Origin: Halalkalibacterium halodurans
GTDB lineage: Bacteria > Bacillota > Bacilli > Bacillales > Bacillaceae_D
DNA: 8,746 bases
NCBI RefSeq assembly: GCF_004376175.1
Contig: NZ_SNUY01000100.1
Coordinates: 1-8,746 of the forward strand
Direction of reading: 5' to 3'
Every line of letters starts with the position of its first letter. Positions within the stretch are counted from its first letter, which is position 1. Shown piece by piece: positions 1 through 8,667 of this stretch. The notes under the pieces are model-generated. The model had not been told where the DNA came from and ran no database searches. It saw only the letters and a list, made by a program, of their open reading frames with translations. The translations under genes were made by a program, and so were the position numbers.

Positions 1-81
1 TTTATCCTTGAAGGAATGGAAGAAATGGCTATCATCTCAAAAGGACAAAAGGAAACGAAAAAGGATGTAATTTTAAGATAA
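1..81 (+). CDS. Possible 3' end of an unidentified gene that begins outside the window (…FILEGMEEMAIISKGQKETKKDVILR*)
   Basis: Frame 1 is open from the window edge to a TAA at 79-81. The tail is hydrophilic and K/E-rich. I recognise no family. The opposite strand is also open here (see the bdbC finding), so the coding strand is ambiguous. Confidence 0.25.
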   Translation, partial: FILEGMEEMAIISKGQKETKKDVILR

Positions 82-118
82 AGTGAGATTAAGAGAGATA
101 CTGTCCAAAATACGGGGG

Positions 119-469
119 TTAATCCGTGGTCATGAACCCGAACCAATTAATATACTCAACATTACAAGGGACCCCGCTTGCACATGGCTTAATGGGAGCG
201 AAACCTGGAACTTTTTGAATCAAATAATGGTATAACGATATACTCCAACCGATTATGGCCAGCGGTAAAACAAATTTCTTTACAGATGAATCATGTTGAA
301 ACGTTCCTATCCCTAGTATGACAACTAATGGATACATCAAAATTCGTTGATACCAGCATAACTCACAAGGGATAAATCCTTTGATTTCACTAAAATACAG
401 ACTGCCGAGTGTTGCTACAATCGATACTAACCAAGCAAAGTATAGAGCGTATTGTCTTATGAATGCCAT
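119..469 (-). CDS. bdbC: Disulfide bond formation protein BdbC (DsbB-family thiol-disulfide oxidoreductase), apparently lacking its last transmembrane helix
   Basis: The translation is collinear with Bacillus BdbC as I recall it: LGSLYFSEI..FIPCELCWYQRILMYPLV…QKVPGF..IKPC.SGVPC…YINWFGF. The CxxC (CELC) is at 356-367 and the second Cys pair is PCASGVPC. The ORF stops right after WFGF, where homologues continue with a TM helix. It starts 4 nt after the bdbD stop. Confidence 0.85.
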   Translation of the reverse strand: MAFIRQYALYFAWLVSIVATLGSLYFSEIKGFIPCELCWYQRILMYPLVVILGIGTFQHDSSVKKFVLPLAIIGWSISLYHYLIQKVPGFAPIKPCASGVPCNVEYINWFGFMTTD

Positions 470-473
470 GGCC

Positions 474-1163
474 CTATTTCCCTTCTAATTCTTGCTCGAT
501 AAGACTTTTCATTTTTTCATAATCAAAAGGGTCTTCTAACATGATGTTATTTACCATAATAGTTGGAGTAAGTTGAATGTTATATTGACTAACTAACTGA
601 TTATCCGTATTTACGTTATTCATTTCAGTTTGATTTTCTAGACTGTCTTGCAACTGTTTAACATCAATTCCTGGAATCGCACTAGCTATTTCTAGAACCT
701 TTTCATTCGTTAACCATAAATCATCATGTGACTGAGTAGTTGGTTGTTCATCAAATATGGCTTTGTGAAAAGCCCAATAGTTCTCTGGAGACTGTTTTAA
801 TACGGCTTCAGCTGCAAGGGAACCTGTTTGGGATTCTTCTCCATGAAATAAGACATTAATATAGGAAAACTTCACTTTCCCTGTATCCACATAATCATTT
901 ATCAATTGGGGAAAAACAGTTTCTCCCCACGCCTTACAAGCAGGACATTTAAAATCGCCAAATTCAACAATGGTTACAGGAGCAGATTCCTCACCCAATA
1001 TAGGCTGTCCTTCAATGGGTGGTTGCTCTTCAAATACAGTAACTTCAGGATCTTGATTTGAAGATTTTGCATTATTTAATAAAACGATTGCCACGAGTAA
1101 ACCGATAATGACAATCGTTAAAACAAATAAGATTTTAACTGGTGATTTTGAATTAGTTTTCAT
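474..1163 (-). CDS. bdbD: Membrane-anchored thiol-disulfide oxidoreductase BdbD (DsbA/thioredoxin fold)
   Basis: The N-terminal TM anchor is ILFVLTIVIIGLLVAIVLL. Motifs APVTIVEFGDFKCPACK (CPAC at 936-947), VKFSYINVLFHG and IQLTPTIMVN match Bacillus BdbD. The RBS is AAGGAG (1173-1178), 9 nt upstream of the ATG. Confidence 0.9.
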   Translation of the reverse strand: MKTNSKSPVKILFVLTIVIIGLLVAIVLLNNAKSSNQDPEVTVFEEQPPIEGQPILGEESAPVTIVEFGDFKCPACKAWGETVFPQLINDYVDTGKVKFSYINVLFHGEESQTGSLAAEAVLKQSPENYWAFHKAIFDEQPTTQSHDDLWLTNEKVLEIASAIPGIDVKQLQDSLENQTEMNNVNTDNQLVSQYNIQLTPTIMVNNIMLEDPFDYEKMKSLIEQELEGK

Positions 1164-1201
1164 TAAAATACTCTCCTTATTGACTAAGTTTTTCTCTGTC
1201 G

Positions 1202-2287
1202 TTAAAAACTTGTCATTAAACTTAAATAGATTGATAACACACTAAGGAAACTCATTACAAAGGCAAAGATTGCTGGTGCCTTCTTACAAAACGAATAGAT
1301 AAGTAACGTCAAAAATATGGCAGCAAGCAGCATAAATATAATGCTGAACGTGGTCAAGGAAAATTGAACTTGCCCTGCAACAGTTCCTCCATAAAAATAC
1401 TGAAATAGAGCTGAGACCCCGTTTGTTTTAATGGTTGACTCTATCTCATGTGGAGGAGAACTTTGACCGAGAAAGGCTGTCGTTGAAAAAATAAAAAGCA
1501 ACAATAAACTTTCTCCTCTAACCCATGGCTTTGGATTAAATTGAGGGTTTTGATTCAATCTACGCTTCATCCATATTCCATTAAAAAAGGCAAAAACAAG
1601 TAGCGGAATAATGAATAAATGTTTTATTAGCAGAGCTTGTCCATAATCTAATAGCCATGAATTTGTATAATCGCTTAAATCTACGACAAGACTCATCATA
1701 TAAAATCCGCTTAATAAAGTGAGGATAAAACAGACAATAGCAAGTGGTGAATACCATTTTAAAAATACATTCCAATTTTTTGTATCTTTTGAAAACCAAC
1801 TAACGATAAAGAGAACTCCAATCCAGACACTTACTGCTGTAAAGTGTGTCGTATGAAAAACAAAGCCACTCCATTCTGTTAGCGAGGCAGCGTGGCTCGC
1901 CCAGCCTACTGCTAAAATCATGCTAAATAAAAATATGAGAGCTACGACAGCGTAAGATTTTTTTTGCTGTACGGGAAAGATAGAAATTAGTAAGTAATAA
2001 AAAATGGATAATATTAAAATCAGTGTCCATGCTCTACCTACTTCAAAATTGTTGATCACATTCGTTAACGTTAGTGACAATCCAATACCTTGATAAAGGT
2101 ACTCAACGATTTGAACGACAGGCATGGCGGAGAATAGAACAATTCCAAGAATAGATAGTTGTAACCAACGCTTATGAATGCTAATGGTAGGTTTTTTTTC
2201 ATTAGGAATGATAGCAATAATAAATGTCCCTGCTAGGATGGCAAAAGATAAATATAACATTAGTTCACTAATCAAATAGGTAATCAT
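1202..2287 (-). CDS. copD: CopD-family polytopic membrane protein (copper transport/resistance, like the C-terminal part of YcnJ)
   Basis: The 361-aa protein is highly hydrophobic, with about 8-10 predicted TM helices. Its start overlaps the stop of the upstream CopC-domain gene (ATGA at 2284-2287). This is the split version of the CopC-CopD fusion YcnJ. No terminator lies before bdbD, and the gap is 38 nt. Confidence 0.8.
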   Translation of the reverse strand: MITYLISELMLYLSFAILAGTFIIAIIPNEKKPTISIHKRWLQLSILGIVLFSAMPVVQIVEYLYQGIGLSLTLTNVINNFEVGRAWTLILILSIFYYLLISIFPVQQKKSYAVVALIFLFSMILAVGWASHAASLTEWSGFVFHTTHFTAVSVWIGVLFIVSWFSKDTKNWNVFLKWYSPLAIVCFILTLLSGFYMMSLVVDLSDYTNSWLLDYGQALLIKHLFIIPLLVFAFFNGIWMKRRLNQNPQFNPKPWVRGESLLLLFIFSTTAFLGQSSPPHEIESTIKTNGVSALFQYFYGGTVAGQVQFSLTTFSIIFMLLAAIFLTLLIYSFCKKAPAIFAFVMSFLSVLSIYLSLMTSF

Positions 2288-2826
2288 TGAATCTTTCCTT
2301 TTCTAATCACGTAAAAGAACGATACAATTGCAAGGATAGCTAAAATAATAGCAATTGTAGACATCATAGCTGGAGGATTTGCTGGTTCTATTTCCACCAC
2401 GACTGGATCTTCCTCCATAGATTGCTCGTCCTTATTAATGATTTGATTTGATTCTTCATTACTGTTTTTTTCTTGTTCGATTTTAACAGTGAATGAAACC
2501 TCTCCTTCGATTGGATGTCCATCTGCTCCGATTATTTTCCAATGAATTTGATACTCTCCACCTTGTAGTTCCTGTGGAAGCATTCCAGATAACATCTTAT
2601 CTTCAATACTTATACCAGTCACAGCCATTCCGTTATCAGATGGATTTATTACTTGAAACTGACTTCCTTTTTCGACCTTCGTATTAAATTCCAATACGAT
2701 TTCTCCAGGTGATGCGGTTAGCACTTCTCCTTCAGAGGGGGAGGAGCTTACTAAGCTTGTATGAGCGAAAGTTAAATTTGGAAATAGTAACAAACAGATA
2801 ATAAGCAATAGCAATGTTTTTTTCAT
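2284..2826 (-). CDS. copC: CopC-domain copper-binding protein with signal peptide, acidic linker and C-terminal TM anchor (YobA/YcnJ N-terminal type)
   Basis: The signal peptide is MKKTLLLLIICLLLFPNLTFA|H, which would leave a mature N-terminal His. The HTSLVSSSPSEGEVL start and the IIGADGHPIEG (DGH) motif are typical of CopC. The C-terminal anchor is STIAIILAILAIVSFFYVIRKGK. The RBS is GGAGGG (2832-2837). Confidence 0.85.
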   Translation of the reverse strand: MKKTLLLLIICLLLFPNLTFAHTSLVSSSPSEGEVLTASPGEIVLEFNTKVEKGSQFQVINPSDNGMAVTGISIEDKMLSGMLPQELQGGEYQIHWKIIGADGHPIEGEVSFTVKIEQEKNSNEESNQIINKDEQSMEEDPVVVEIEPANPPAMMSTIAIILAILAIVSFFYVIRKGKIQ

Positions 2827-2856
2827 TTAGTCCCTCCATTCTGTTAAGACCATTGT

Positions 2857-2885
2857 ATTATAGCAAGTAATCAAACATAATTAAA
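2857..2885 (-). promoter_or_regulatory. Candidate sigma-A promoter for copC-copD-bdbD-bdbC (extended -10 TGCTATAAT, weak -35 TTTAAT)
   Basis: On the minus strand, TATAAT is at 2857-2862 and is preceded by TGc (2863-2865). TTTAAT sits at 2880-2885 after a 17-nt spacer. This is sequence pattern only. Confidence 0.35.
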
Positions 2886-2904
2886 CGCTCATTTGAATGT
2901 AATA

Positions 2905-2933
2905 TTGACAATTCTGAAAACGAGGCATAGACT
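2905..2933 (+). promoter_or_regulatory. cad operon promoter (-35 TTGACA, 17-nt spacer, -10 TAGACT)
   Basis: TTGACA is at 2905-2910 and TAGACT at 2928-2933. The promoter lies immediately upstream of the operator palindrome and cadC. Confidence 0.55.
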
Positions 2934-2935
2934 TT

Positions 2936-2955
2936 AATCAAATGATAATTTGAAT
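2936..2955. promoter_or_regulatory. CadC (ArsR/SmtB) operator: near-palindrome AATCAAATGATAATTTGAAT
   Basis: The core TCAAAT-GATA-ATTTGA (2938-2953) is a perfect 6-4-6 inverted repeat. It lies just after the -10 and overlaps the cadC leader. It closely resembles the TCAAAT…ATTTGAATGAAG operator I recall from the staphylococcal pI258 cad operon. Confidence 0.6.
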
Positions 2956-2967
2956 GAAGGTGACGGT

Positions 2968-3351
2968 ATGAGTCAAAAAGTAAAACAGGACGACGATACA
3001 TGTGAGATTTTTTGTTATGACGAAGAAAAGGTAAAACGGATCTCATCTATTGTAAAGGCAGAGAACCTCGCTCCAGTTGCGTGTATTTTTAAGGCTTTAT
3101 CAGATGAAACTAGATTGAAAATTGCTTATTCCTTATTACAAGAAGGAGAGTTATGTGTCTGTGATGTCGCGAATATTATTGGCGCAACAATGGCCACGGT
3201 CTCTCATCATTTGCGCCATCTCCGCAATTTAGGAATTGCGAAGAGTAGAAAAGAAGGAAAGCTGGTCTTTTACTCTTTAGACGATGAGCACGTTAGAATG
3301 CTTGTTCAAACAGCGGTCGTGCATGGGAAGGAGGTAGAAGAACGTGACTGA
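2968..3351 (+). CDS. cadC: Cd/Pb/Zn-sensing ArsR/SmtB-family repressor CadC
   Basis: DTCEIFCYDEEKV, ELCVCD and the HTH segment IANIIGATMATVSHHLRHL…RKEGKLVFYSL are near-identical in pattern to pI258/Bacillus CadC. I prefer the ATG at 2968, preceded by AAGGTG at 2957-2962, over the TTG at 2950 used by the ORF track. Confidence 0.93.
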   Translation: MSQKVKQDDDTCEIFCYDEEKVKRISSIVKAENLAPVACIFKALSDETRLKIAYSLLQEGELCVCDVANIIGATMATVSHHLRHLRNLGIAKSRKEGKLVFYSLDDEHVRMLVQTAVVHGKEVEERD

Positions 3352-3423
3352 AGAAGCGAAAGGATTAGAACGGCAAAAAACGGTCTACCGTGTCCAAGGA
3401 CTTACTTGAGCAGGCTGTGCCGC

Positions 3424-3442
3424 CACGTTCGAAAAGAACGTG
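3424..3442 (+). other. Perfect 7-bp stem / 5-nt loop RNA hairpin (CACGTTC-GAAAA-GAACGTG), 14 nt downstream of the in-frame TGA
   Basis: The structure is read directly from the sequence. The loop starts with a G 22 nt 3' of the TGA. About half of the pairing follows from the conserved FEKN codons, and the rest depends on codon choice. Its function is unknown. Confidence 0.5.
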
Positions 3443-5491
3443 AAACACCTGGATGGTGTTGTTGATGCTAAAGTAAACTTTGGGGTTTCAAAGGTGACTG
3501 TTTTCGGTGAGACAACGATAAAAGATCTAGAAAAAGCCGGAGCCTTTGAAAGTTTAAAAGTGATTCCCGAGAATGATCAAGCAGGATTTGGAGAGAAAAA
3601 AGAACCGTTTGTTTTAAAATATTTAAACGTGATTACAGCTGCTCTTTTTGTGATTTTTGGGTATGTTTCACAATCTGTTTATGGGGAAGGTCACATTTTC
3701 TCCGTTCTCTTATTTATGGCTTCGATTGTAATCGGGGGATTTTCGCTCTTTAAAGTGGGTTTTAAGAATTTATTGCGCTTGCAATTTGATATGAAAACGT
3801 TGATGACGGTTGCGGTAATTGGTGCTGCGATTATTGGAGAATGGACAGAAGGAGCGATTGTCGTTATTCTGTTTGCGATTAGTGAAGCTCTTGAACGTTT
3901 TTCTATGGATAAGGCGAGACAATCCATCCGATCGTTAATGGACATTGCTCCGAAAGAAGCGCTGATTAGAAGAGACGGTCAGGAAATGATGATTAAGGTT
4001 GACGAGATTGAAGTTGGCGATATTATGATTGTGAAACCTGGGCAAAAAATTGCGATGGATGGCGTTGTTCGAAAAGGACACTCTGCGGTGAACCAGGCGG
4101 CGATAACTGGAGAGTCCGTACCAGTTGAAAAGTCGGTAGATGATGACATTTTTGCTGGAACGTTGAATGAAGAAGGGTTACTTGAAGTAGAGGTAACAAA
4201 GCATGTAAATGATACGACGCTTGCCAAGATTATTCATCTTGTAGAGGAAGCGCAAGGGGAGCGTGCTCCGTCCCAAGCGTTTGTAGATAAATTTGCTAAA
4301 TATTATACACCGGCTATTATGGTGGTAGCAGCGCTTGTCGCTATTGTTCCGCCATTATTGTTCCAAGCTAGTTGGGAGTTATGGGTGTATCAAGGTTTAG
4401 CGGTTCTAGTTGTTGGTTGCCCTTGTGCACTAGTCATCTCCACACCCGTAGCGATTGTTACAGCCATTGGAAATGCTGCGAAGAATGGGATCTTAGTTAA
4501 AGGTGGAGTTTATTTAGAAGAGGCCGGTGCTTTAAAAGCAATTGCCTTTGATAAAACAGGTACGTTAACAAAAGGTAAACCCGTTGTCACAGATTTTATT
4601 CGTTATCAGGATCAGACAGATGAAGAAGAATTATTATCTATTATTGCTGCTTTAGAGTATCGTTCTCAACATCCTCTTGCTTCTGCGATTATGAAAAAGG
4701 CAGAACAAGAGAAGATACCTTATATGGATACTGCTGTAGAGGAGTTTTCATCGATTACTGGTAAAGGAATTAAAGGGGCCGTCGATCAAACCGAGTTCTA
4801 TATAGGCAGCCCTTCCTTATTTGCTGAATTGCTGAATGACGATCTACCTACTAAAGTAGAAGAGGACGTTCGAACACTCCAAAAACAAGGGAAAACCGCA
4901 ATGATCGTTGGAACGAATAGTGAGGTTCTTGCCATTATTGCCGTAGCGGATGAAGTAAGAGAAACGAGTCAGGAAGTTATCAAAAAACTGCATGACTTAG
5001 GGATTAAAAAAACGATCATGCTTACAGGTGATAATAAACGAACAGCTGAAGCAATAGGTGGACATGTAGGTGTTACCGATGTTCAGGCAGAATTGATGCC
5101 TGAAGGTAAACTAGAATATATAAAACGATTACGCTCCGAGTATGGGAATGTCGCCATGGTAGGAGATGGGGTGAATGATGCTCCAGCACTAGCAGCTTCA
5201 ACCGTCGGAATTGCAATGGGAGGCGCTGGTACAGATACCGCGTTAGAGACAGCGGATGTTGCGCTTATGGGTGATGACTTAACAAAGCTTCCTTATACAG
5301 TTAAGTTAAGTCGGAAAGCTTTGAATATTATTAAGCAAAACATTACCTTTTCATTAGGGATTAAATTAGTAGCTTTACTTCTAGTGGTTCCAGGTTGGCT
5401 CACTCTTTGGATTGCCATTTTGGCGGATATGGGCGCAACTTTATTAGTTACCTTTAATGGGTTAAGACTGTTAAGAGTGAAAGATAAATAA
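3440..5491 (+). CDS. cadA: Alternative model: longest uninterrupted cadA ORF (683 aa), starting at a GTG inside the HMA domain
   Basis: This ORF contains the complete transmembrane and catalytic core of a P1B ATPase. It begins mid-way through the HMA fold and has no Shine-Dalgarno upstream (…ttcgaaaagaacGTG). The GTG is base-paired in the 3424-3442 hairpin, so it is unlikely to be the native start. Confidence 0.5.
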
Positions 5492-5498
5492 TACAACT

Positions 5499-5533
5499 AA
5501 GAGAGTTAAGGAAGCTTCCTTAACTCTCTTTTT
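5499..5533 (+). terminator. Rho-independent terminator of cadCA
   Basis: AAGAGAGTTAAGGAAG/CTTCCTTAACTCTCTT (5499-5530) is a perfect 32-nt palindrome followed by a T-run. It begins 8 nt after the cadA TAA. Confidence 0.85.
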
Positions 5534-5550
5534 GAAAGGAGAAAAATCGA

Positions 5551-5811
5551 ATGGATTATGATGTCCTGGTAATTGGTGGAGGGCAAGCAGGTTTAGCTGT
5601 TGGGTATTATCTAAAAAAAGAACAATTTCAATTTTTGATTTTAGATGAACAAGAAAGAACAGGTGATTCTTGGCGTAACCGGTATGACTCATTAGTCCTT
5701 TTTACACCAAGGTCGTATGGTGCTTTACCAGGCCTTGCATTAAATGGTGATCCAAACGGGTTTCCTACAAAAGACGAAATAGCTGATTATTTGCAAAACT
5801 ATGCAGAATAG
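5551..5811 (+). pseudogene. N-terminal remnant (86 aa) of a FAD/NAD(P)-dependent oxidoreductase (flavin monooxygenase-like, CzcO-type)
   Basis: MDYDVLVIGGGQAGLAVGYYL is a GxGxxG dinucleotide-binding fold. …SWRNRYDSLVLFTPR…FPTKDEIADYLQNYAE matches the first quarter or so of roughly 340-360 aa homologues, as I recall them. The RBS AAAGGAG (5535-5541) is intact. The ORF ends abruptly at the neighbouring gene's terminator. Confidence 0.7.
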
Positions 5812-5824
5812 AATAAATCAACAG

Positions 5825-5872
5825 AAAAAGGGTTCCAATCATTTTGTTTTTATGAGATTGGAACCCTTTTTT
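5825..5872. terminator. Bidirectional rho-independent terminator (A5-GGGTTCCAATC…GATTGGAACCC-T6)
   Basis: The 11-bp perfect stem pairs 5830-5840 with 5856-5866. It is flanked by an A-run and a T-run. It lies between the oxidoreductase remnant and the convergent peptidase gene. Confidence 0.8.
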
Positions 5873-5883
5873 ATTATTTTTGG

Positions 5884-7299
5884 CTAGTTATGTCCCAGCC
5901 TCTTAACATATTGGAGGAAATCTTTTAATTGTCCATTCTTATATAATTCAATGTGAAGGTGAACACCTGTTGAATTACCCGTTTCACCCATTACGCCAAT
6001 TTGTGTTCCTTTTGAGACCGTTTGACCTGTTTGCACGGAAAGGGACTTCATATGAGAATAGGTTGTTTTATATCCATTGTTATGTGTAATCTCGACCTTA
6101 TTTCCATAGCCTCCTGACCAACCTGCAAAAGTAACCGTCCCATTGTCAGCAGCTAAAATATCGAGTCTACTTGGTCTTGCAATATCTGTCCCTTGATGCA
6201 TTCTTCCCCATCGTTGTCCCATTTTACTAGAAACGTAGCCCCCAACTGTCGGCCAGGCAAATTGACCCGTTCCGCGTGAAGGGATAACCTTTGTCCCTTT
6301 AATGATAATTTCTGGTATGGGTTCTTCTACAATCGTTTCATCTATTATCTCTTCTTTAACAACAGATCCATTCTTTTTTGTGAGTTGATAAAGCACATCT
6401 TTCTTTCCGTTCTTCCCTTGTTGTTTTATCTTGCTGTCACCTTTATACATCGTATCGTCTTCAACGATTTTCGTTTCGAATTCAATCTCTTCAGCTTTAT
6501 TTAGTTTTTCTTTTACTATAATGTCTGTCAACGGTTGATAGTCTGTTACGATAAGTGGTTGTCCAATTTGAAGGACGTGATCATTTTTATATTCCGGGTT
6601 TAGTTTGAGCAACTCATCAATTGTCAATTGATATTTTTGGGCAATTGTACTTAGTGCATCGCCTTGTTGAATAAGATACTCTTTTTCCTGTAAACTTCCT
6701 TTAATGATATAGTTTACGGCTTCATCAACTGAAAGAATGTCGTCTGGACTAACTTGACCAGAAGTAATAGTTGGTTGTGTTGAATAAGAAACATCTAGAA
6801 CCTGGCTTTTGTTGTCACTCTTTTGCTCGCTGTTGGTCAGTGCATTAAGATCTTCGCTTGACACAAACCGTAATTTCAATTGGTTTAGCGTTTCTTCTGC
6901 ATCTTCTTTTTCTTTTAAATATAAAAATTGATCCTCGAATTCAAGCTTACTAGCTACCGCTTCAATCGTTACATTTTCTTTAATCCAACTTAAAATTTGC
7001 TCATCAGAAGTATCTGGAAAAAATGTGTGTTCTGGGATATATGTAATATTTTTTGAAGTGGTCAACTCTAGATCTTTGTAAGTCTTGTCTAAGTTATCAA
7101 TTTTAGCTAGAATCAGATCATTTATGAGTTCTTTATTGCTTATTGTTCCGATGCGTTTATCATCAATGAGTACATGATAAATAACCGGTATGTAATCATG
7201 ATTATCAGCGGCTAAAACAGATAAAGGAATGACAGTAGTAAATAAAATAATGAGATTCATCACCACTTTTAGTGATTTAAACAAAAAAGAAGAAAACAC
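5884..7299 (-). CDS. Secreted LysM-domain, G5-like-domain M23 family metallo-endopeptidase (peptidoglycan hydrolase); start codon uncertain (GTG 7299 or ATG 7260)
   Basis: The M23 catalytic motifs are HQGTD (6184-6198) and HLH (5953-5961), with a GYGNKVEITH…GETGNSTG context. LysM is YLIQQGDALSTIAQKYQLTIDELLKLNP. The G5-like stretch is KGDSKIKQQGKNGKKDV…IIKGTK. The N-terminal signal peptide is …LIILFTTVIPLSVLA|AD. The first 13-15 codons lie inside the IS left terminal repeat. Confidence 0.88.
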   Translation of the reverse strand: MFSSFLFKSLKVVMNLIILFTTVIPLSVLAADNHDYIPVIYHVLIDDKRIGTISNKELINDLILAKIDNLDKTYKDLELTTSKNITYIPEHTFFPDTSDEQILSWIKENVTIEAVASKLEFEDQFLYLKEKEDAEETLNQLKLRFVSSEDLNALTNSEQKSDNKSQVLDVSYSTQPTITSGQVSPDDILSVDEAVNYIIKGSLQEKEYLIQQGDALSTIAQKYQLTIDELLKLNPEYKNDHVLQIGQPLIVTDYQPLTDIIVKEKLNKAEEIEFETKIVEDDTMYKGDSKIKQQGKNGKKDVLYQLTKKNGSVVKEEIIDETIVEEPIPEIIIKGTKVIPSRGTGQFAWPTVGGYVSSKMGQRWGRMHQGTDIARPSRLDILAADNGTVTFAGWSGGYGNKVEITHNNGYKTTYSHMKSLSVQTGQTVSKGTQIGVMGETGNSTGVHLHIELYKNGQLKDFLQYVKRLGHN

Positions 7300-7356: not shown

Positions 7357-8550
7357 GTGTTTTCCGTATCACTAGAATTGCCGGAATTTAAAGTTGTTAA
7401 ACAAGTATTTCATGAAGAGTTTTTCCAACTCAATGTTGTAAAAAAATCAACGGAAGAGCGTTGCCCGTATTGTGGGTTTCTTACTAATCATGTCCACGAC
7501 AGACGTACACGTAAAGTACGTGACTTAAAGGTACTTGATAAGCCACTCTTTCTGTTTGTTCAAGTGAATCGTTTTCGTTGCTTCAATTGTGATGAAGTGT
7601 TCACACAGACGTTTGAGTCTATTCAACCAAATAAGCATCAAACAAATCGCTATCGAGAGTATCTCTATGAGCAGTGTCTTGGCTCAACCATCAGAATGGT
7701 GAGCGAAAAAGAAAACATTCCTTATACTACATTAGAACGCCTTTTCTATTCAATCGCCACAGAAAAGGAAATCGAGCATATAAACGAGCTCGAAGAGAAC
7801 TTGCGGGACGAAGAGCTCGTCATTAGTATCGACGAAGTCGCTGTCCGAAAAGGACATCGATACGAAACGGTTTTAATGGATGCCAAGACTGGTCGGGTAT
7901 TAGCGATGGAAGAGAACCGAAGCTTTGAATCCACTCAACTCCTTTTAACAAAGAACTTACTCTCTCAGTCGTGTGTAGAAACGGTTGTCGTCGATATGTG
8001 GAAGCCGTTCCATAAAGCCATCCAAACGCTATTTCCAGCTGCTTGTCTTGTCATTGATAAATACCATGTCGTTCAAAAAGTGACTCAAGCTTTAGATCAA
8101 GTTAGAAAACGGTTTCCAACACTTAAAAAAGGTAGATTTGCCTTATTAAAAGGCTACGAAAATCTAACTGAACAACAAAAGCAACAGCTAGAAGGATGGC
8201 TCGACGAACATGATGAATTGGCCTTGGCTTACTACTTAAAAGAATCATTCCGTGACTTCTACCAAGCCAGTGACTATGACACAGCTGAAGAACTATTAGA
8301 TAACTGGATCAATGAAGCAAAAGCAAGCCCATTTAGAGCTTATCAAGAGGTTGCCAGAACACTGGAGAAGTGGAAAGCATCTATCCTTCAGTACTTTCTC
8401 ACTCCGTACACTAATGGTCGAATTGAAGGAACAAACCATAAAATTAAAAACATCAAAAGGCGAGCATATGGCTTTCGAAATATCCAACGATTTCGCTTAC
8501 GTGTATTTTTGGAGTGTACGGGAAAAACTAATGAAAAACAGGCAGCTTAA
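7357..8550 (+). CDS. ISL3-family transposase (397 aa)
   Basis: The N-terminal zinc-finger pattern CPYCG…RFRCFNC is followed by …IDEVAVRKGHRYETVLMD…VVVDMWKPFHKAI…IDKYHV…NGRIEGTNHKIKNIKRRAYGFRN, which is typical of ISL3/IS204/IS1001 transposases. The start is a GTG with AGGAGG (7343-7348) 8 nt upstream. Confidence 0.93.
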   Translation: MFSVSLELPEFKVVKQVFHEEFFQLNVVKKSTEERCPYCGFLTNHVHDRRTRKVRDLKVLDKPLFLFVQVNRFRCFNCDEVFTQTFESIQPNKHQTNRYREYLYEQCLGSTIRMVSEKENIPYTTLERLFYSIATEKEIEHINELEENLRDEELVISIDEVAVRKGHRYETVLMDAKTGRVLAMEENRSFESTQLLLTKNLLSQSCVETVVVDMWKPFHKAIQTLFPAACLVIDKYHVVQKVTQALDQVRKRFPTLKKGRFALLKGYENLTEQQKQQLEGWLDEHDELALAYYLKESFRDFYQASDYDTAEELLDNWINEAKASPFRAYQEVARTLEKWKASILQYFLTPYTNGRIEGTNHKIKNIKRRAYGFRNIQRFRLRVFLECTGKTNEKQAA

Positions 8551-8563
8551 CAGCTTACAAATT

Positions 8564-8667
8564 CCTTCATCAGCTAGCCAAAGGGTAGTTGGTAGGTTGA
8601 AACCCGTCAAGGAACCCACTTGACCGCTTTCAACCTACCAACTGAATGGTGCCTAAGCAGATGAAGG
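8564..8667. repeat. 104-nt compound inverted repeat / long hairpin between the transposase stop and the right IR
   Basis: Three nested stems are visible. The outer one pairs CCTTCATC (8564-8571) with GATGAAGG (8660-8667). The middle one is a perfect 16-bp stem, AGTTGGTAGGTTGAAA (8587-8602) with TTTCAACCTACCAACT (8628-8643). The inner one pairs GTCAAG (8606-8611) with CTTGAC (8619-8624) around a 7-nt loop. Confidence 0.6.

What the first reader, a model, noticed from the sequence alone, without database searches (positions are those of the whole stretch)
3344..3442. In-frame TGA exactly replaces the first cysteine of the CadA metal-binding CXXC motif, with a perfect hairpin just downstream
What the sequence shows:
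- From a well-placed GTG (3344), with a strong AGGAGG and the 8-nt overlap with cadC, the frame reads …[38 protein letters not shown].
- This is the canonical HMA fold GxTCxxCA with the first Cys codon (TGT/TGC) replaced by TGA at 3407-3409.
- Everything 3' of the TGA is intact and in frame: [18 protein letters not shown].
- A perfect 7-bp stem (3424-3430 with 3436-3442) carries a GAAAA loop. The loop begins 22 nt 3' of the TGA.

Three readings, in my order of likelihood:
1. A recent single-base nonsense mutation, making cadA a pseudogene. Any HMA-less product would depend on inefficient restart at GTG 3440, which has no SD and lies within the stem.
2. A sequencing or assembly error.
3. UGA recoded as selenocysteine.

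For the Sec reading: a UxxC in place of a redox or metal-binding CxxC is the classic position for Sec, and a hairpin with a G-initiated apical loop about 16-37 nt after the UGA fits the loose bacterial SECIS description. From memory and unverified, heavy-metal P-type ATPases and HMA proteins have appeared in computational selenoproteome surveys.

Against the Sec reading: Sec use is rare in Bacillaceae. Part of the hairpin (TTC GAA AAG AAC) is forced by the conserved FEKN peptide. Neighbouring genes also look decayed.
Basis: partly seen in the sequence, partly recalled or inferred. Interest (0 to 1): 0.75.

Follow-up and report, generated by a model that had tools for sequence, protein, structure and literature searches.

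The report
Selenocysteine codon in cadmium pump CadA
The in-frame TGA in this cadmium-efflux pump gene is not damage: at least 38 other Bacillaceae species keep the same codon, and its features fit a selenocysteine codon in the pump's metal-binding motif, a type already listed in computational surveys but routinely mis-annotated as a truncated gene.

Summary
In detail: GTG 3344, TGA 3407-3409 in place of the first Cys of the HMA motif G-x-T-C-x-x-C, and a perfect 7-bp hairpin at 3424-3442.

Its third reading, selenocysteine, is strongly supported.
- The same codon is TGA, never TAA or TAG, in 39 of 39 interrupted orthologues from about 12 Bacillaceae genera, all with an intact ~700-codon frame after it.
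- The nine codons before the TGA are under purifying selection (pN/pS 0.24).
- The 18 codons after the TGA are the most synonymously conserved stretch of the gene.
- Hairpin 1 shows independent compensatory changes.
- Cys-form relatives lack both hairpins. Two Cys forms nested inside the TGA clade have decayed hairpins.
- SelA is present in the same assembly as one carrier. One carrier strain is a published Sec user.

Sec machinery in the window's own genome could not be checked. UxxC heavy-metal P-type ATPases are already a catalogued, predicted selenoprotein family, so this is a new, well-supported member rather than a new kind.

The parts
2968..3351 (+). cadC, an ArsR/SmtB-family metalloregulator. 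Its stop overlaps the cadA start by 8 nt.
   Evidence: Pfam HTH_5 at 1.1e-14. NCBIfam NF033788 at 97 bits against a cutoff of 55. Translation.
3329..3334 (+). Shine-Dalgarno AGGAGG, 9 nt upstream of the cadA GTG start.
   Evidence: A GGAGG-type site is conserved upstream of the start in L001-L006.
3344..5491 (+). Full-length cadA: a 715-residue P1B-type Cd/Zn ATPase if TGA 3407 is decoded. Gene callers report only the 683-aa ORF from GTG 3440.
   Evidence: Translation. TIGR01525 scores 630 bits (cutoff 346) and TIGR01512 scores 539 bits (cutoff 313.5). CPC lies at 4418-4426, DKTGT at 4550-4564 and [10 protein letters not shown] at 5162-5191.
3383..3535 (+). N-terminal HMA metal-binding domain (residues 14-64), spanning the TGA.
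   Evidence: Pfam HMA scores 47.1 bits over profile positions 1-54 when TGA is read as Cys. It scores 25.4 bits over positions 10-54 for the part after the TGA alone.
3407..3409 (+). In-frame TGA, the inferred selenocysteine codon. It is the first residue of the metal-binding U-A-G-C motif; the partner Cys TGT is at 3416-3418.
   Evidence: TGA in 39 of 39 interrupted orthologues and never TAA or TAG. TGT or TGC at the same aligned position in Cys forms. TGA in four independent SRA assemblies.
3424..3442 (+). Hairpin 1 of the candidate SECIS: 7 bp in the window, with a conserved 4-bp core (3427-3430 with 3436-3439) and loop GAAAA beginning 21 nt after the UGA.
   Evidence: The core pairs are never broken in 38 sequences. 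Pair 3427:3439 is GC in 36 and AU in 2. Pair 3430:3436 is CG in 31, UA in 5 and UG in 2. On the tree the compensatory changes are independent events. In Cys forms the loop-closing pair is broken in 13 of 18.
3444..3460 (+). Hairpin 2 of the candidate SECIS: AACACC / loop UGGAU / GGUGUU. The block 3446-3459 is nucleotide-invariant apart from one loop base that differs in 2 of the 38 aligned sequences.
   Evidence: Alignment A1. It has the lowest third-position entropy of 673 five-codon windows in the gene: 0.217 bits against a median of 1.45, and 1.7-1.8 bits in Cys forms. The motif occurs once per locus and only in TGA-form genes.
5499..5530 (.). Perfect 32-nt palindrome, 8 nt after the cadA stop. 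It probably marks the operon end as a terminator or a binding site, but its function was not tested.
   Evidence: Inverted repeat I9 with 16-nt arms, 100% complementary and no spacer.

Best explanation
The TGA at 3407-3409 is a selenocysteine codon. cadA here encodes a full-length, 715-residue cadmium/zinc-exporting P1B-type ATPase. Its N-terminal HMA domain binds metal through a Sec-x-x-Cys (U-A-G-C) pair instead of Cys-x-x-Cys.

Inferred decoding mechanism: the ribosome initiates at GTG 3344, translationally coupled to cadC, and reaches the UGA. SelB carrying Sec-tRNA(Sec) is recruited by an RNA element in the next ~50 nt of coding sequence, hairpins 3424-3442 and 3444-3460, and inserts Sec in competition with RF2. 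Translation then continues through the pump.

Shown here:
- The TGA is conserved.
- The sequence on both sides of it is under selection.
- Both hairpins are selected at the RNA level, and only in TGA forms.
- Cys homologues align at the same site.
- SelA co-occurs in other carriers.

Inferred, not shown:
- That Sec, rather than another residue, is inserted.
- Which hairpin binds SelB.
- That the window's own host has selA, selB, selC and selD.
- That the selenolate tunes affinity or kinetics for soft metals, making pump synthesis selenium-dependent.
For: 1. Conservation. The codon is TGA in 39 of 39 interrupted orthologues, never TAA or TAG. These are 38 GTDB species-representative genomes plus the window. 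They span Halalkalibacter, Alkalihalobacillus, Neobacillus, Cytobacillus, Robertmurraya, Peribacillus, Sediminibacillus, Aquibacillus, Niallia, Mesobacillus and Rossellomorea, at protein identities down to ~65%.

2. Intact frames. The 38 aligned TGA-form genes keep an open frame of 693-716 codons measured from 10 codons upstream of the TGA to the stop, about 680-705 of them after the TGA (L052 was not in this set). All 39 keep 15-41 codons from a start codon before it.

3. Upstream selection. The nine codons before the TGA encode the HMA beta-1 strand (VYRVxG[FL][TS]) and are under purifying selection: pS 0.75, pN 0.18, ratio 0.24.

4. Synonymous-site conservation. Of 673 five-codon windows across the gene, 11 of the 12 with the lowest third-position entropy lie at codons -1 to +18 from the TGA. 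The minimum is 0.217 bits against a median of 1.45. The same windows in Cys forms score 1.1-1.8 bits.

5. Structure. In TGA forms 91.9% of cells are paired and 0 of 500 shuffles reach that value. Two hairpin-1 pairs show compensatory changes and no broken cells. These arose in at least four and two separate lineages respectively. In Cys forms 60.7% of cells are paired and 235 of 500 shuffles are as high.

6. Sec-to-Cys reversions. Cys forms nested in the TGA clade are H. akibai L011, whose first ~50 residues including the UxxC/SECIS region are identical to those of H. halodurans P0001, and R. korlensis L044. All carry point changes that break the hairpins. H. halodurans C-125 is listed as lacking SelD, SelA and SelB (PMC5029168 Table S1).

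7. Sec machinery in carriers. Bacillus sp. ISL-45 has SelA on JAGGQQ010000006 and TGA-cadA on JAGGQQ010000019 of the same assembly. R. massiliosenegalensis JC6 (L035) is listed as SelD+, SelA+ and SelB+ with 5 selenoproteins. SelA is found at species level for M. maritimus, R. aquimaris, A. kalidii and N. niacini.

8. Spacing. The hairpin-1 loop begins 21 nt after the UGA. The SECIS loop of a SelW-like selenoprotein gene next to selA in N. niacini has the same spacing.

9. Precedent. [quoted passage not shown]
Against: - No sel gene or tRNA-Sec could be examined in the window's own genome. None lies in the window or in the +/-10 kb flanks of any carrier locus.
- SelA of the window's closest subclade (Halalkalibacter, A. 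deserti, B. solitudinis) did not appear in the two top-120 SelA lists. Those lists are cut at ~50% identity, so this is uninformative rather than negative.
- Rfam gave no SECIS hit.
- The hairpin-1 loop (GAAAA) lacks the G-U dinucleotide seen in the two other Bacillaceae SECIS loops examined.
- The hairpin-2 loop begins 41 nt after the UGA. That is slightly beyond the 16-37 nt range of the standard bacterial SECIS model (the range is from my memory of Zhang and Gladyshev 2005).
- No selenoprotein of this family has been verified experimentally, as far as the library searches show.
- The window's island is rearranged at both borders, so this copy could sit in a host that cannot decode it.
Confidence: 0.88

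Rival explanations
1. Recent single-base nonsense mutation (TGT/TGC to TGA). On this reading cadA is a pseudogene, or at best yields an HMA-less pump by restart at GTG 3440.
For: - Gene callers and RefSeq treat the gene this way, reporting 683-aa or 665-aa products (P0002, P0003, P0004, P0009).
- Two neighbouring genes in the window are truncated.
Against: - The stop is TGA in 39 of 39 orthologues across about 12 genera and is old relative to ~35% protein divergence.
- Both flanks stay open and are under purifying selection.
- The candidate restart codon is GTG in only 15 of 39. It is GTA, GTC or GTT, which are not start codons, in the other 24.
- A pseudogene would not show the strongest synonymous conservation of the gene just after its stop.
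Confidence: 0.03
2. Sequencing or assembly error at 3407-3409.
For: None beyond prior plausibility for a single-base difference.
Against: - The same TGA is present in L001 (97.4% identical over 5.5 kb).
- It is also present in four contigs assembled independently from four SRA runs (L081-L084, 99% identical protein).
- It is present in 37 further species genomes.
Confidence: 0.01
3. Programmed UGA read-through or recoding that does not insert Sec. For example, near-cognate decoding by tRNA-Trp or tRNA-Cys stimulated by the downstream hairpins, or the UGA plus hairpins acting purely as a translational attenuator of pump synthesis.
For: - Conservation of the TGA and of the downstream RNA structure shows recoding or regulation, not the identity of the inserted residue.
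- Low-level UGA read-through as Trp is known in Bacillus subtilis (my own knowledge, not checked here).
- Sec machinery was not verified in the window's subclade.
Against: - The site is the metal-ligand Cys of an HMA CxxC. Every non-TGA homologue has Cys there, including the two nested revertants, so a Cys-like residue is required. Trp would destroy the site.
- Carriers that could be checked have SelA.
- The closely related gene from H. halodurans, whose type strain C-125 is listed as lacking SelD, SelA and SelB, is the Cys form.
- UxxC P-type ATPases are found by Sec-specific surveys in Sec-using organisms.
Confidence: 0.06

Closest known systems
[quoted passage not shown] Listed by Zhang and Gladyshev 2007 and 2008, by Peng et al. 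2016 (25 organisms, 32 proteins) and in the 2022 and 2026 reviews.
   Same: - It is a heavy-metal P1B-type ATPase; TIGR01525 scores 630 bits.
- Sec is predicted at the first position of a UxxC metal-binding motif.
- Cys-containing homologues are far more common.
- It is known only from sequence analysis.
   Different: - The published tables name one example accession, ABB15669.1. By my recollection, not checked here, that is from a Clostridia-class organism (Carboxydothermus). They give no description of a Bacillaceae CadA clade, its SECIS, its location on mobile cadCA islands or its Sec-to-Cys reversions.
- I could not fetch ABB15669.1 to compare it directly.
Classical Cys-form CadA/CadC cadmium resistance operons of Bacillota. 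Examples are Staphylococcus aureus plasmid cadCA, A. pseudofirmus OF4 plasmid cadCA and H. halodurans CadA (P0001).
   Same: - The cadC-cadA operon has overlapping genes.
- The architecture is the same: HMA, then 8 transmembrane helices with CPC, then DKTGT and GDGxNDxP.
- DNA identity to S. aureus cadCA is 69% and protein identity to P0001 is 95%.
   Different: - The first metal-ligand Cys is encoded by TGA.
- Two RNA hairpins are embedded in the next 50 nt.
- The peptide after the motif is frozen as [11 protein letters not shown] by nucleotide-level constraint, whereas it is variable in Cys forms.
Bacterial SelB/SECIS recoding. Comparators are the E. coli fdhF paradigm and the Bacillaceae examples seen here: C. 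spongiae selD and a SelW-like gene in N. niacini.
   Same: - An in-frame UGA is followed within the coding sequence by a stable hairpin.
- The hairpin-1 loop begins 21 nt after the UGA, as in the N. niacini SelW-like gene.
- The loop starts with G.
   Different: - There are two adjacent selected hairpins instead of one.
- The invariant hairpin is the distal one, with its loop 41 nt after the UGA.
- Neither loop contains the G-U dinucleotide present in the selD (CGUGC) and SelW-like (GGUCU) loops.
Small HMA-fold selenoproteins (NCBIfam NF041115 'UxxU metal-binding (seleno)protein'; Sec forms of MerP and MerT listed in selenoproteome surveys).
   Same: HMA fold with Sec in the metal-binding loop. 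There is a weak match of residues 10-53 to NF041115: 29 bits against a cutoff of 95.
   Different: The match is below the family cutoff. Here the domain is fused to a pump and carries UxxC, not UxxU.

Membership tests
P1B-type heavy-metal (Cd/Zn) ATPase, CadA/ZntA group | Profile match above the curated cutoff | tested here: met
   TIGR01525 scores 630.2 bits (cutoff 346.25). TIGR01512, the cadmium family, scores 538.9 bits (cutoff 313.5).
P1B-type heavy-metal (Cd/Zn) ATPase, CadA/ZntA group | Catalytic and transport motifs: transmembrane CPC, phosphorylation site DKTGT, hinge GDGxNDxP | tested here: met
   CPC at 4418-4426, DKTGT at 4550-4564 and [10 protein letters not shown] at 5162-5191, all in frame with GTG 3344.
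P1B-type heavy-metal (Cd/Zn) ATPase, CadA/ZntA group | N-terminal HMA metal-binding domain with two thiol(ate) ligands | tested here: met
   The HMA domain is complete only if the TGA is decoded: 47.1 bits over profile positions 1-54. The ligands are U22 (inferred) and C25.
Bacterial selenoprotein gene (SelB/SECIS-dependent UGA recoding) | In-frame UGA conserved among orthologues, with open and selected reading frame on both sides | tested here: met
   39 of 39 are TGA. The 38 aligned genes stay open for 693-716 codons measured from 10 codons upstream of the TGA. Upstream pN/pS is 0.24.
Bacterial selenoprotein gene (SelB/SECIS-dependent UGA recoding) | Cys-containing homologues align with the UGA position | tested here: met
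   TGT or TGC at the aligned codon in 17 Cys-form loci and in P0001, including two forms nested in the TGA clade.
Bacterial selenoprotein gene (SelB/SECIS-dependent UGA recoding) | SECIS: a stable hairpin shortly downstream of the UGA, supported by covariation or conservation beyond coding needs | tested here: met
   There are two hairpins. 91.9% of cells are paired, with 0 of 500 shuffles as high, and compensatory pairs are present. Synonymous sites are conserved. The structure is absent from Cys forms. Which hairpin binds SelB is unknown, and there is no Rfam model hit.
Bacterial selenoprotein gene (SelB/SECIS-dependent UGA recoding) | selA, selB, selC (tRNA-Sec) and selD present in the same genome | not testable with these tools
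   - The window's genome is not available, and no sel gene or tRNA-Sec lies in the window or the carrier flanks.
- The feature is met for other carriers. SelA is in the same assembly for Bacillus sp. ISL-45. JC6 is SelD+, SelA+ and SelB+ in PMC5029168. SelA is found at species level for four more.
- It was not established for the Halalkalibacter subclade.
Bacterial selenoprotein gene (SelB/SECIS-dependent UGA recoding) | Selenium actually incorporated (75Se labelling or mass spectrometry) | not testable with these tools
   This requires an experiment. No report was found in the library.
[quoted passage not shown] | COG2217/TIGR01525 membership with a UxxC motif | tested here: met
   TIGR01525 is met. 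The motif U-A-G-C is at residues 22-25. The family definition is taken from PMC9312934 and PMC13188914.
[quoted passage not shown] | Direct homology of the Sec position to the published example ABB15669.1 | not tested
   The sequence of ABB15669.1 could not be retrieved with the tools.
Pseudogene (unitary nonsense mutation) | Lineage-restricted stop with relaxed constraint around it | tested here: not met
   The stop is shared by about 12 genera and is always TGA. The strongest constraint in the gene lies next to it.

The most novel reading that the evidence does not exclude
The recoding signal may be a two-hairpin SECIS of a kind not covered by the standard bacterial model. The invariant distal hairpin (loop UGGAU, 41 nt after the UGA) would be the SelB-binding site. 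The covarying proximal hairpin would act as a compact spacer that brings it into range.

Biologically, Sec would make a horizontally mobile cadmium-resistance operon selenium-dependent and usable only in Sec-competent hosts. Conversion of Sec to Cys, followed by SECIS decay, would be the escape route on transfer to Sec-less hosts such as H. halodurans.
Probability: 0.25. Interest if true: 0.65.

Novelty: new member of a known kind. Interest (0 to 1): 0.5.

Why it matters
- **Annotation.** In at least 38 Bacillaceae species this cadmium pump gene is annotated as an N-terminally truncated 665-683-aa protein or would be scored as a pseudogene. It is most likely a full-length selenoprotein.
- **An experimental entry point.** Sec-containing heavy-metal P-type ATPases have never been verified experimentally. 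This clade occurs in cultivable aerobic Bacillaceae, has natural Cys revertants 95% identical to it, and has an easy phenotype (cadmium MIC with or without selenite). That makes it a practical system for asking what a selenolate ligand does in a metal-binding domain.
- **SECIS recognition in Bacillaceae.** The alignment gives a well-supported Bacillaceae SECIS with natural compensatory mutations. It can be used to test SelB recognition rules outside E. coli and Moorella.
- **Horizontal transfer.** It is a clear case in which a recoded codon constrains the horizontal transfer of a resistance module.

Tried and rejected
- **Exact-protein look-ups.** Look-ups of the window's 683-aa ORF, its M23 peptidase, P0004, P0009 and P0475 found nothing on record. 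The source genome of the window was therefore not identified.
- **tRNA-Sec.** An ARAGORN search of the window and 39 related loci found no tRNA at all.
- **sel genes in flanks.** A local tblastn of Cytobacillus SelA and SelD against all fetched loci found no hits. sel genes are not linked to cadA.
- **Rfam.** An E-value scan of the window gave only spurious hits on a terminator-like hairpin at 5808-5885 and no SECIS model hit.
- **Plasmid collection.** No TGA-form cadA was found among 72,556 plasmids. The best hits were Cys forms at about 71% identity.
- **SelA of the window's subclade.** I tried two named SelA searches seeded from C. spongiae and Alkalicoccus, one exhaustive representative search, and naming of 20 representatives. 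None showed Halalkalibacter, A. deserti or B. solitudinis, but the lists are truncated, so this is inconclusive.
- **A second Sec codon.** I checked whether the truncated DsbB-like gene or the oxidoreductase fragment hides one. They do not; they end at rearrangement breakpoints.
- **A split thioredoxin/YtkA pair in L081.** I considered it as another TGA-interrupted gene. The two ORFs are in different frames, so I did not pursue it.
Full report
**1. Observation**

- AGGAGG lies at 3329-3334 and GTG at 3344. The start overlaps the cadC stop (3349-3351) by 8 nt.
- The frame reads VTEEAKGLERQKTVYRVQGLT, then TGA at 3407-3409, then [17 protein letters not shown]. It stays open to TAA at 5489-5491.
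- It contains CPC (4418-4426), DKTGT (4550-4564) and [10 protein letters not shown] (5162-5191).
- The stem 3424-3430 pairs with 3436-3442. It is a perfect 7 bp with loop GAAAA.
- The 71-nt stretch around it folds better than 198 of 200 shuffles.
- If the TGA is read as Cys, the Pfam HMA match nearly doubles, from 25.4 to 47.1 bits, and reaches the start of the profile.
- The whole protein passes the curated cutoffs of TIGR01525 and TIGR01512, the heavy-metal and cadmium P-type ATPase models.

**2. The TGA is conserved, not a lesion**

A protein search showed several relatives at 87-99% identity that were all exactly 683 aa. That length means gene callers started at the equivalent of GTG 3440.

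A scan of one genome per species returned 80 loci. Reading the codon in each gave these results.
- 38 species-level genomes plus the window have an in-frame stop at G-[FL]-[TS]-stop-A-[GS]-C.
- All 39 stops are TGA. None is TAA or TAG.
- The carriers come from Halalkalibacter, Alkalihalobacillus, Neobacillus, Cytobacillus, Robertmurraya, Peribacillus, Sediminibacillus, Aquibacillus, Niallia, Mesobacillus, Rossellomorea and unnamed Bacillus.
- The 38 aligned TGA-form genes remain open for 693-716 codons counted from 10 codons upstream of the TGA. All 39 keep 15-41 codons from a start codon before it.
- The nine codons just upstream encode the HMA beta-1 strand. They show pS 0.75 against pN 0.18. 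A 21-residue dead-end peptide would not be conserved in this way.
- Four independent SRA assemblies of a 99%-identical gene carry the same TGA. This excludes a sequencing error.
- The proposed restart codon GTG 3440 is a start codon in only 15 of 39 orthologues. A conserved HMA-less restart product is therefore not supported.

**3. An RNA element is selected downstream, only in TGA forms**

I aligned the 69 nt starting at the TGA in 38 sequences (A1).

*Hairpin 1.*
- The 4-bp core (window 3427-3430 with 3436-3439) is never broken.
- Two of its pairs change on both sides: GC to AU in 2 sequences, and CG to UA in 5, with UG intermediates in 2.
- All four varying positions are synonymous third positions of Thr, Phe, Lys and Asn codons.
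- On a neighbour-joining tree built from the rest of the protein, these changes fall in at least two and four separate lineages respectively.

Its block CACCUGGAUGGUGU is invariant at every synonymous site. The only exception is one loop base that differs in 2 of the 38 aligned sequences.

*Whole-gene comparison.*
- Of 673 five-codon windows, 11 of the 12 with the lowest third-position entropy lie at codons -1 to +18 from the TGA.
- The minimum is 0.217 bits at KHLDG, against a gene median of 1.45.
- In Cys-form relatives the same windows score 1.1-1.8 bits.

*Control set of 18 Cys forms.*
- The same 13 pairs are paired in only 60.7% of cells, no better than shuffles (235 of 500).
- The loop-closing pair of hairpin 1 is broken in 13 of 18.
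- The hairpin is therefore not a by-product of the FEKN peptide.

**4. Sec-to-Cys reversions**

The TGA clade is deep, and at least two Cys forms nest inside it.
- H. akibai (L011) sits among the window's closest relatives. Its first ~50 residues, covering the UxxC motif and SECIS region, are identical to those of the H. halodurans protein P0001.
- R. korlensis (L044) sits next to two TGA forms.
- Both revertants carry substitutions that break the hairpins. L011 has ACTTTC...GAACGT and GACACCTGAAGGGCGT. L044 has AACCTGGATGGTGT.
- H. halodurans C-125 is listed as lacking SelD, SelA and SelB in Peng et al. 2016 (PMC5029168 Table S1).

**5. Sec machinery**

The same paper lists about 27 Bacillus strains as Sec-utilizing organisms (SelA and SelB present), and all but four of them have at least one known selenoprotein. 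Sec use is therefore not rare in Bacillaceae.

For TGA-form carriers I found the following.
- R. massiliosenegalensis JC6 (L035) is SelD+, SelA+ and SelB+ with five known selenoproteins.
- I used a Bacillaceae SelA found on a Cytobacillus spongiae replicon as a query. SelA proteins named for several TGA-cadA carriers then appeared: Bacillus sp. ISL-45, R. massiliosenegalensis, M. maritimus, R. aquimaris, A. kalidii and N. niacini.
- For ISL-45 the selA contig and the cadA contig belong to the same assembly.

I could not identify the window's source genome. I also could not show SelA in its nearest subclade; the lists are truncated, so this remains open. No sel gene or tRNA-Sec is linked to cadA.

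**6. Mechanism**

The best-supported model is standard bacterial Sec insertion. SelB carrying Sec-tRNA(Sec) would be recruited by the coding-region RNA element to the UGA, giving a CadA whose HMA domain binds metal through a U-x-x-C pair.

Which hairpin binds SelB is not settled.
- The hairpin-1 loop starts 21 nt after the UGA. This matches the spacing in a SelW-like selenoprotein gene beside selA in N. niacini, whose hairpin is CCGCG-GGUCU-CGCGG.
- Hairpin 2 is the invariant element, loop included, but its loop starts 41 nt after the UGA.
- C. spongiae selD, itself a selenoprotein gene, has its loop 32 nt after the UGA.
- A 2022 review notes that some bacterial selenoprotein genes do not fit the consensus SECIS model (PMC9312934).

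That pump synthesis becomes selenium-dependent, and that the selenolate changes metal handling, are inferences.

**7. Comparison with what is known**

- It is counted in 25 organisms with 32 proteins by Peng et al. 2016.
- It is described in a 2026 review as awaiting functional study.
- NCBIfam also holds a model for an HMA-type UxxU (seleno)protein.

The window's gene meets the family's sequence-level definition. I found no paper describing the Bacillaceae CadA clade, its RNA element or its reversions. Public annotations give truncated proteins. I therefore file it as a new, well-supported member of a known, predicted kind.

**8. Context**

The window is collinear with its closest relatives only over about 127-5673.
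- Within that block lie a thioredoxin/DsbA-like gene, copD, copC, cadC and cadA.
- The DsbB-like gene at the left border is cut to 116 aa, against 140 aa in L081.
- A fragment of an FAD oxidoreductase ends near 5811.
- An M23 peptidase gene and an ISL3 transposase gene follow.
- A relative's flank carries MazE/ParE toxin-antitoxin and cell-wall hydrolase genes typical of mobile elements.

The cadCA module thus sits on a rearranging, probably mobile island. That fits the pattern of Sec-to-Cys conversion in recipient lineages.

**9. Verdict**

The remaining uncertainty is the untested Sec machinery of this particular host and the absence of any experimental proof for this protein family.

Noticed in passing
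window 3444-3460: A second hairpin lies immediately after the one reported: AACACC, loop TGGAT, GGTGTT. It is nucleotide-invariant in 36 of the 38 aligned TGA-form orthologues, and it is the most synonymously conserved spot in the gene.
   Followed up: yes
window 1-469 (minus strand): The DsbB/BdbC-like gene is cut to 116 aa, against 140 aa in the near-identical locus L081. Collinearity with relatives ends at about position 127, which suggests a rearrangement breakpoint.
   Followed up: partly
window 5551-5811: An 86-aa N-terminal fragment of an FAD/NAD(P)-binding oxidoreductase ends abruptly. Similarity to L001 stops at 5673 and to L002 and L011 at 5807.
   Followed up: partly
window 5499-5530: A perfect 32-nt palindrome (AAGAGAGTTAAGGAAG/CTTCCTTAACTCTCTT) with no spacer lies 8 nt after the cadA stop codon. 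It could be a terminator or a protein-binding site.
   Followed up: no
window 5808-5885: A 16-bp perfect hairpin (5825-5840 with 5856-5871) lies between the convergent oxidoreductase fragment and the M23 peptidase gene. It caused spurious sub-threshold Rfam hits (mir-465, ctRNA_p42d, CrcZ). It is probably a bidirectional terminator.
   Followed up: no
window 7357-8643: An ISL3-family transposase gene (397 aa) is followed by a 25-nt inverted repeat hairpin at 8587-8643. The element's ends were not mapped.
   Followed up: no
P0003, P0004, P0009 (public proteins); L002, L003, L005: Public gene calls for the TGA-form cadA are N-terminally truncated, at 665 or 683 aa. The selenoprotein is systematically mis-annotated.
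   Followed up: partly
L044 (Robertmurraya korlensis) versus P0187: R. korlensis carries the Cys-form cadA although a SelA named for this species exists. Sec-to-Cys replacement is therefore not confined to hosts that lost Sec decoding.
   Followed up: no
L089 11983-13044 (Cytobacillus spongiae, 690-kb replicon labelled plasmid): selD is itself a selenoprotein gene, with TGA at 12043 in the motif G-U-G-C. An 8-bp hairpin follows, with its loop 32 nt downstream. selA lies next to it, and both sit on a replicon filed as a plasmid.
   Followed up: partly
L092 5200-5260 (Neobacillus niacini, next to selA): A SelW/Rdx-like gene has a C-M-Q-TGA motif and a hairpin CCGCG-GGUCU-CGCGG resembling the GGUC loop I recall from E. 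coli fdhF (not checked here). The gene call covers only the 42 aa after the TGA.
   Followed up: partly
L003, L041, L042, L044 (downstream of cadA): A second P-type ATPase gene with a CopA-like GMTCxxC HMA motif lies a few kb downstream in several loci. It keeps Cys, so Sec use is specific to the CadA HMA.
   Followed up: no
L081 1714-2413: MazE/ParE toxin-antitoxin genes and an NlpC/P60-SLT hydrolase gene flank the copCD-cadCA block in a 99%-identical metagenomic contig. This suggests a plasmid or an integrative conjugative element.
   Followed up: no
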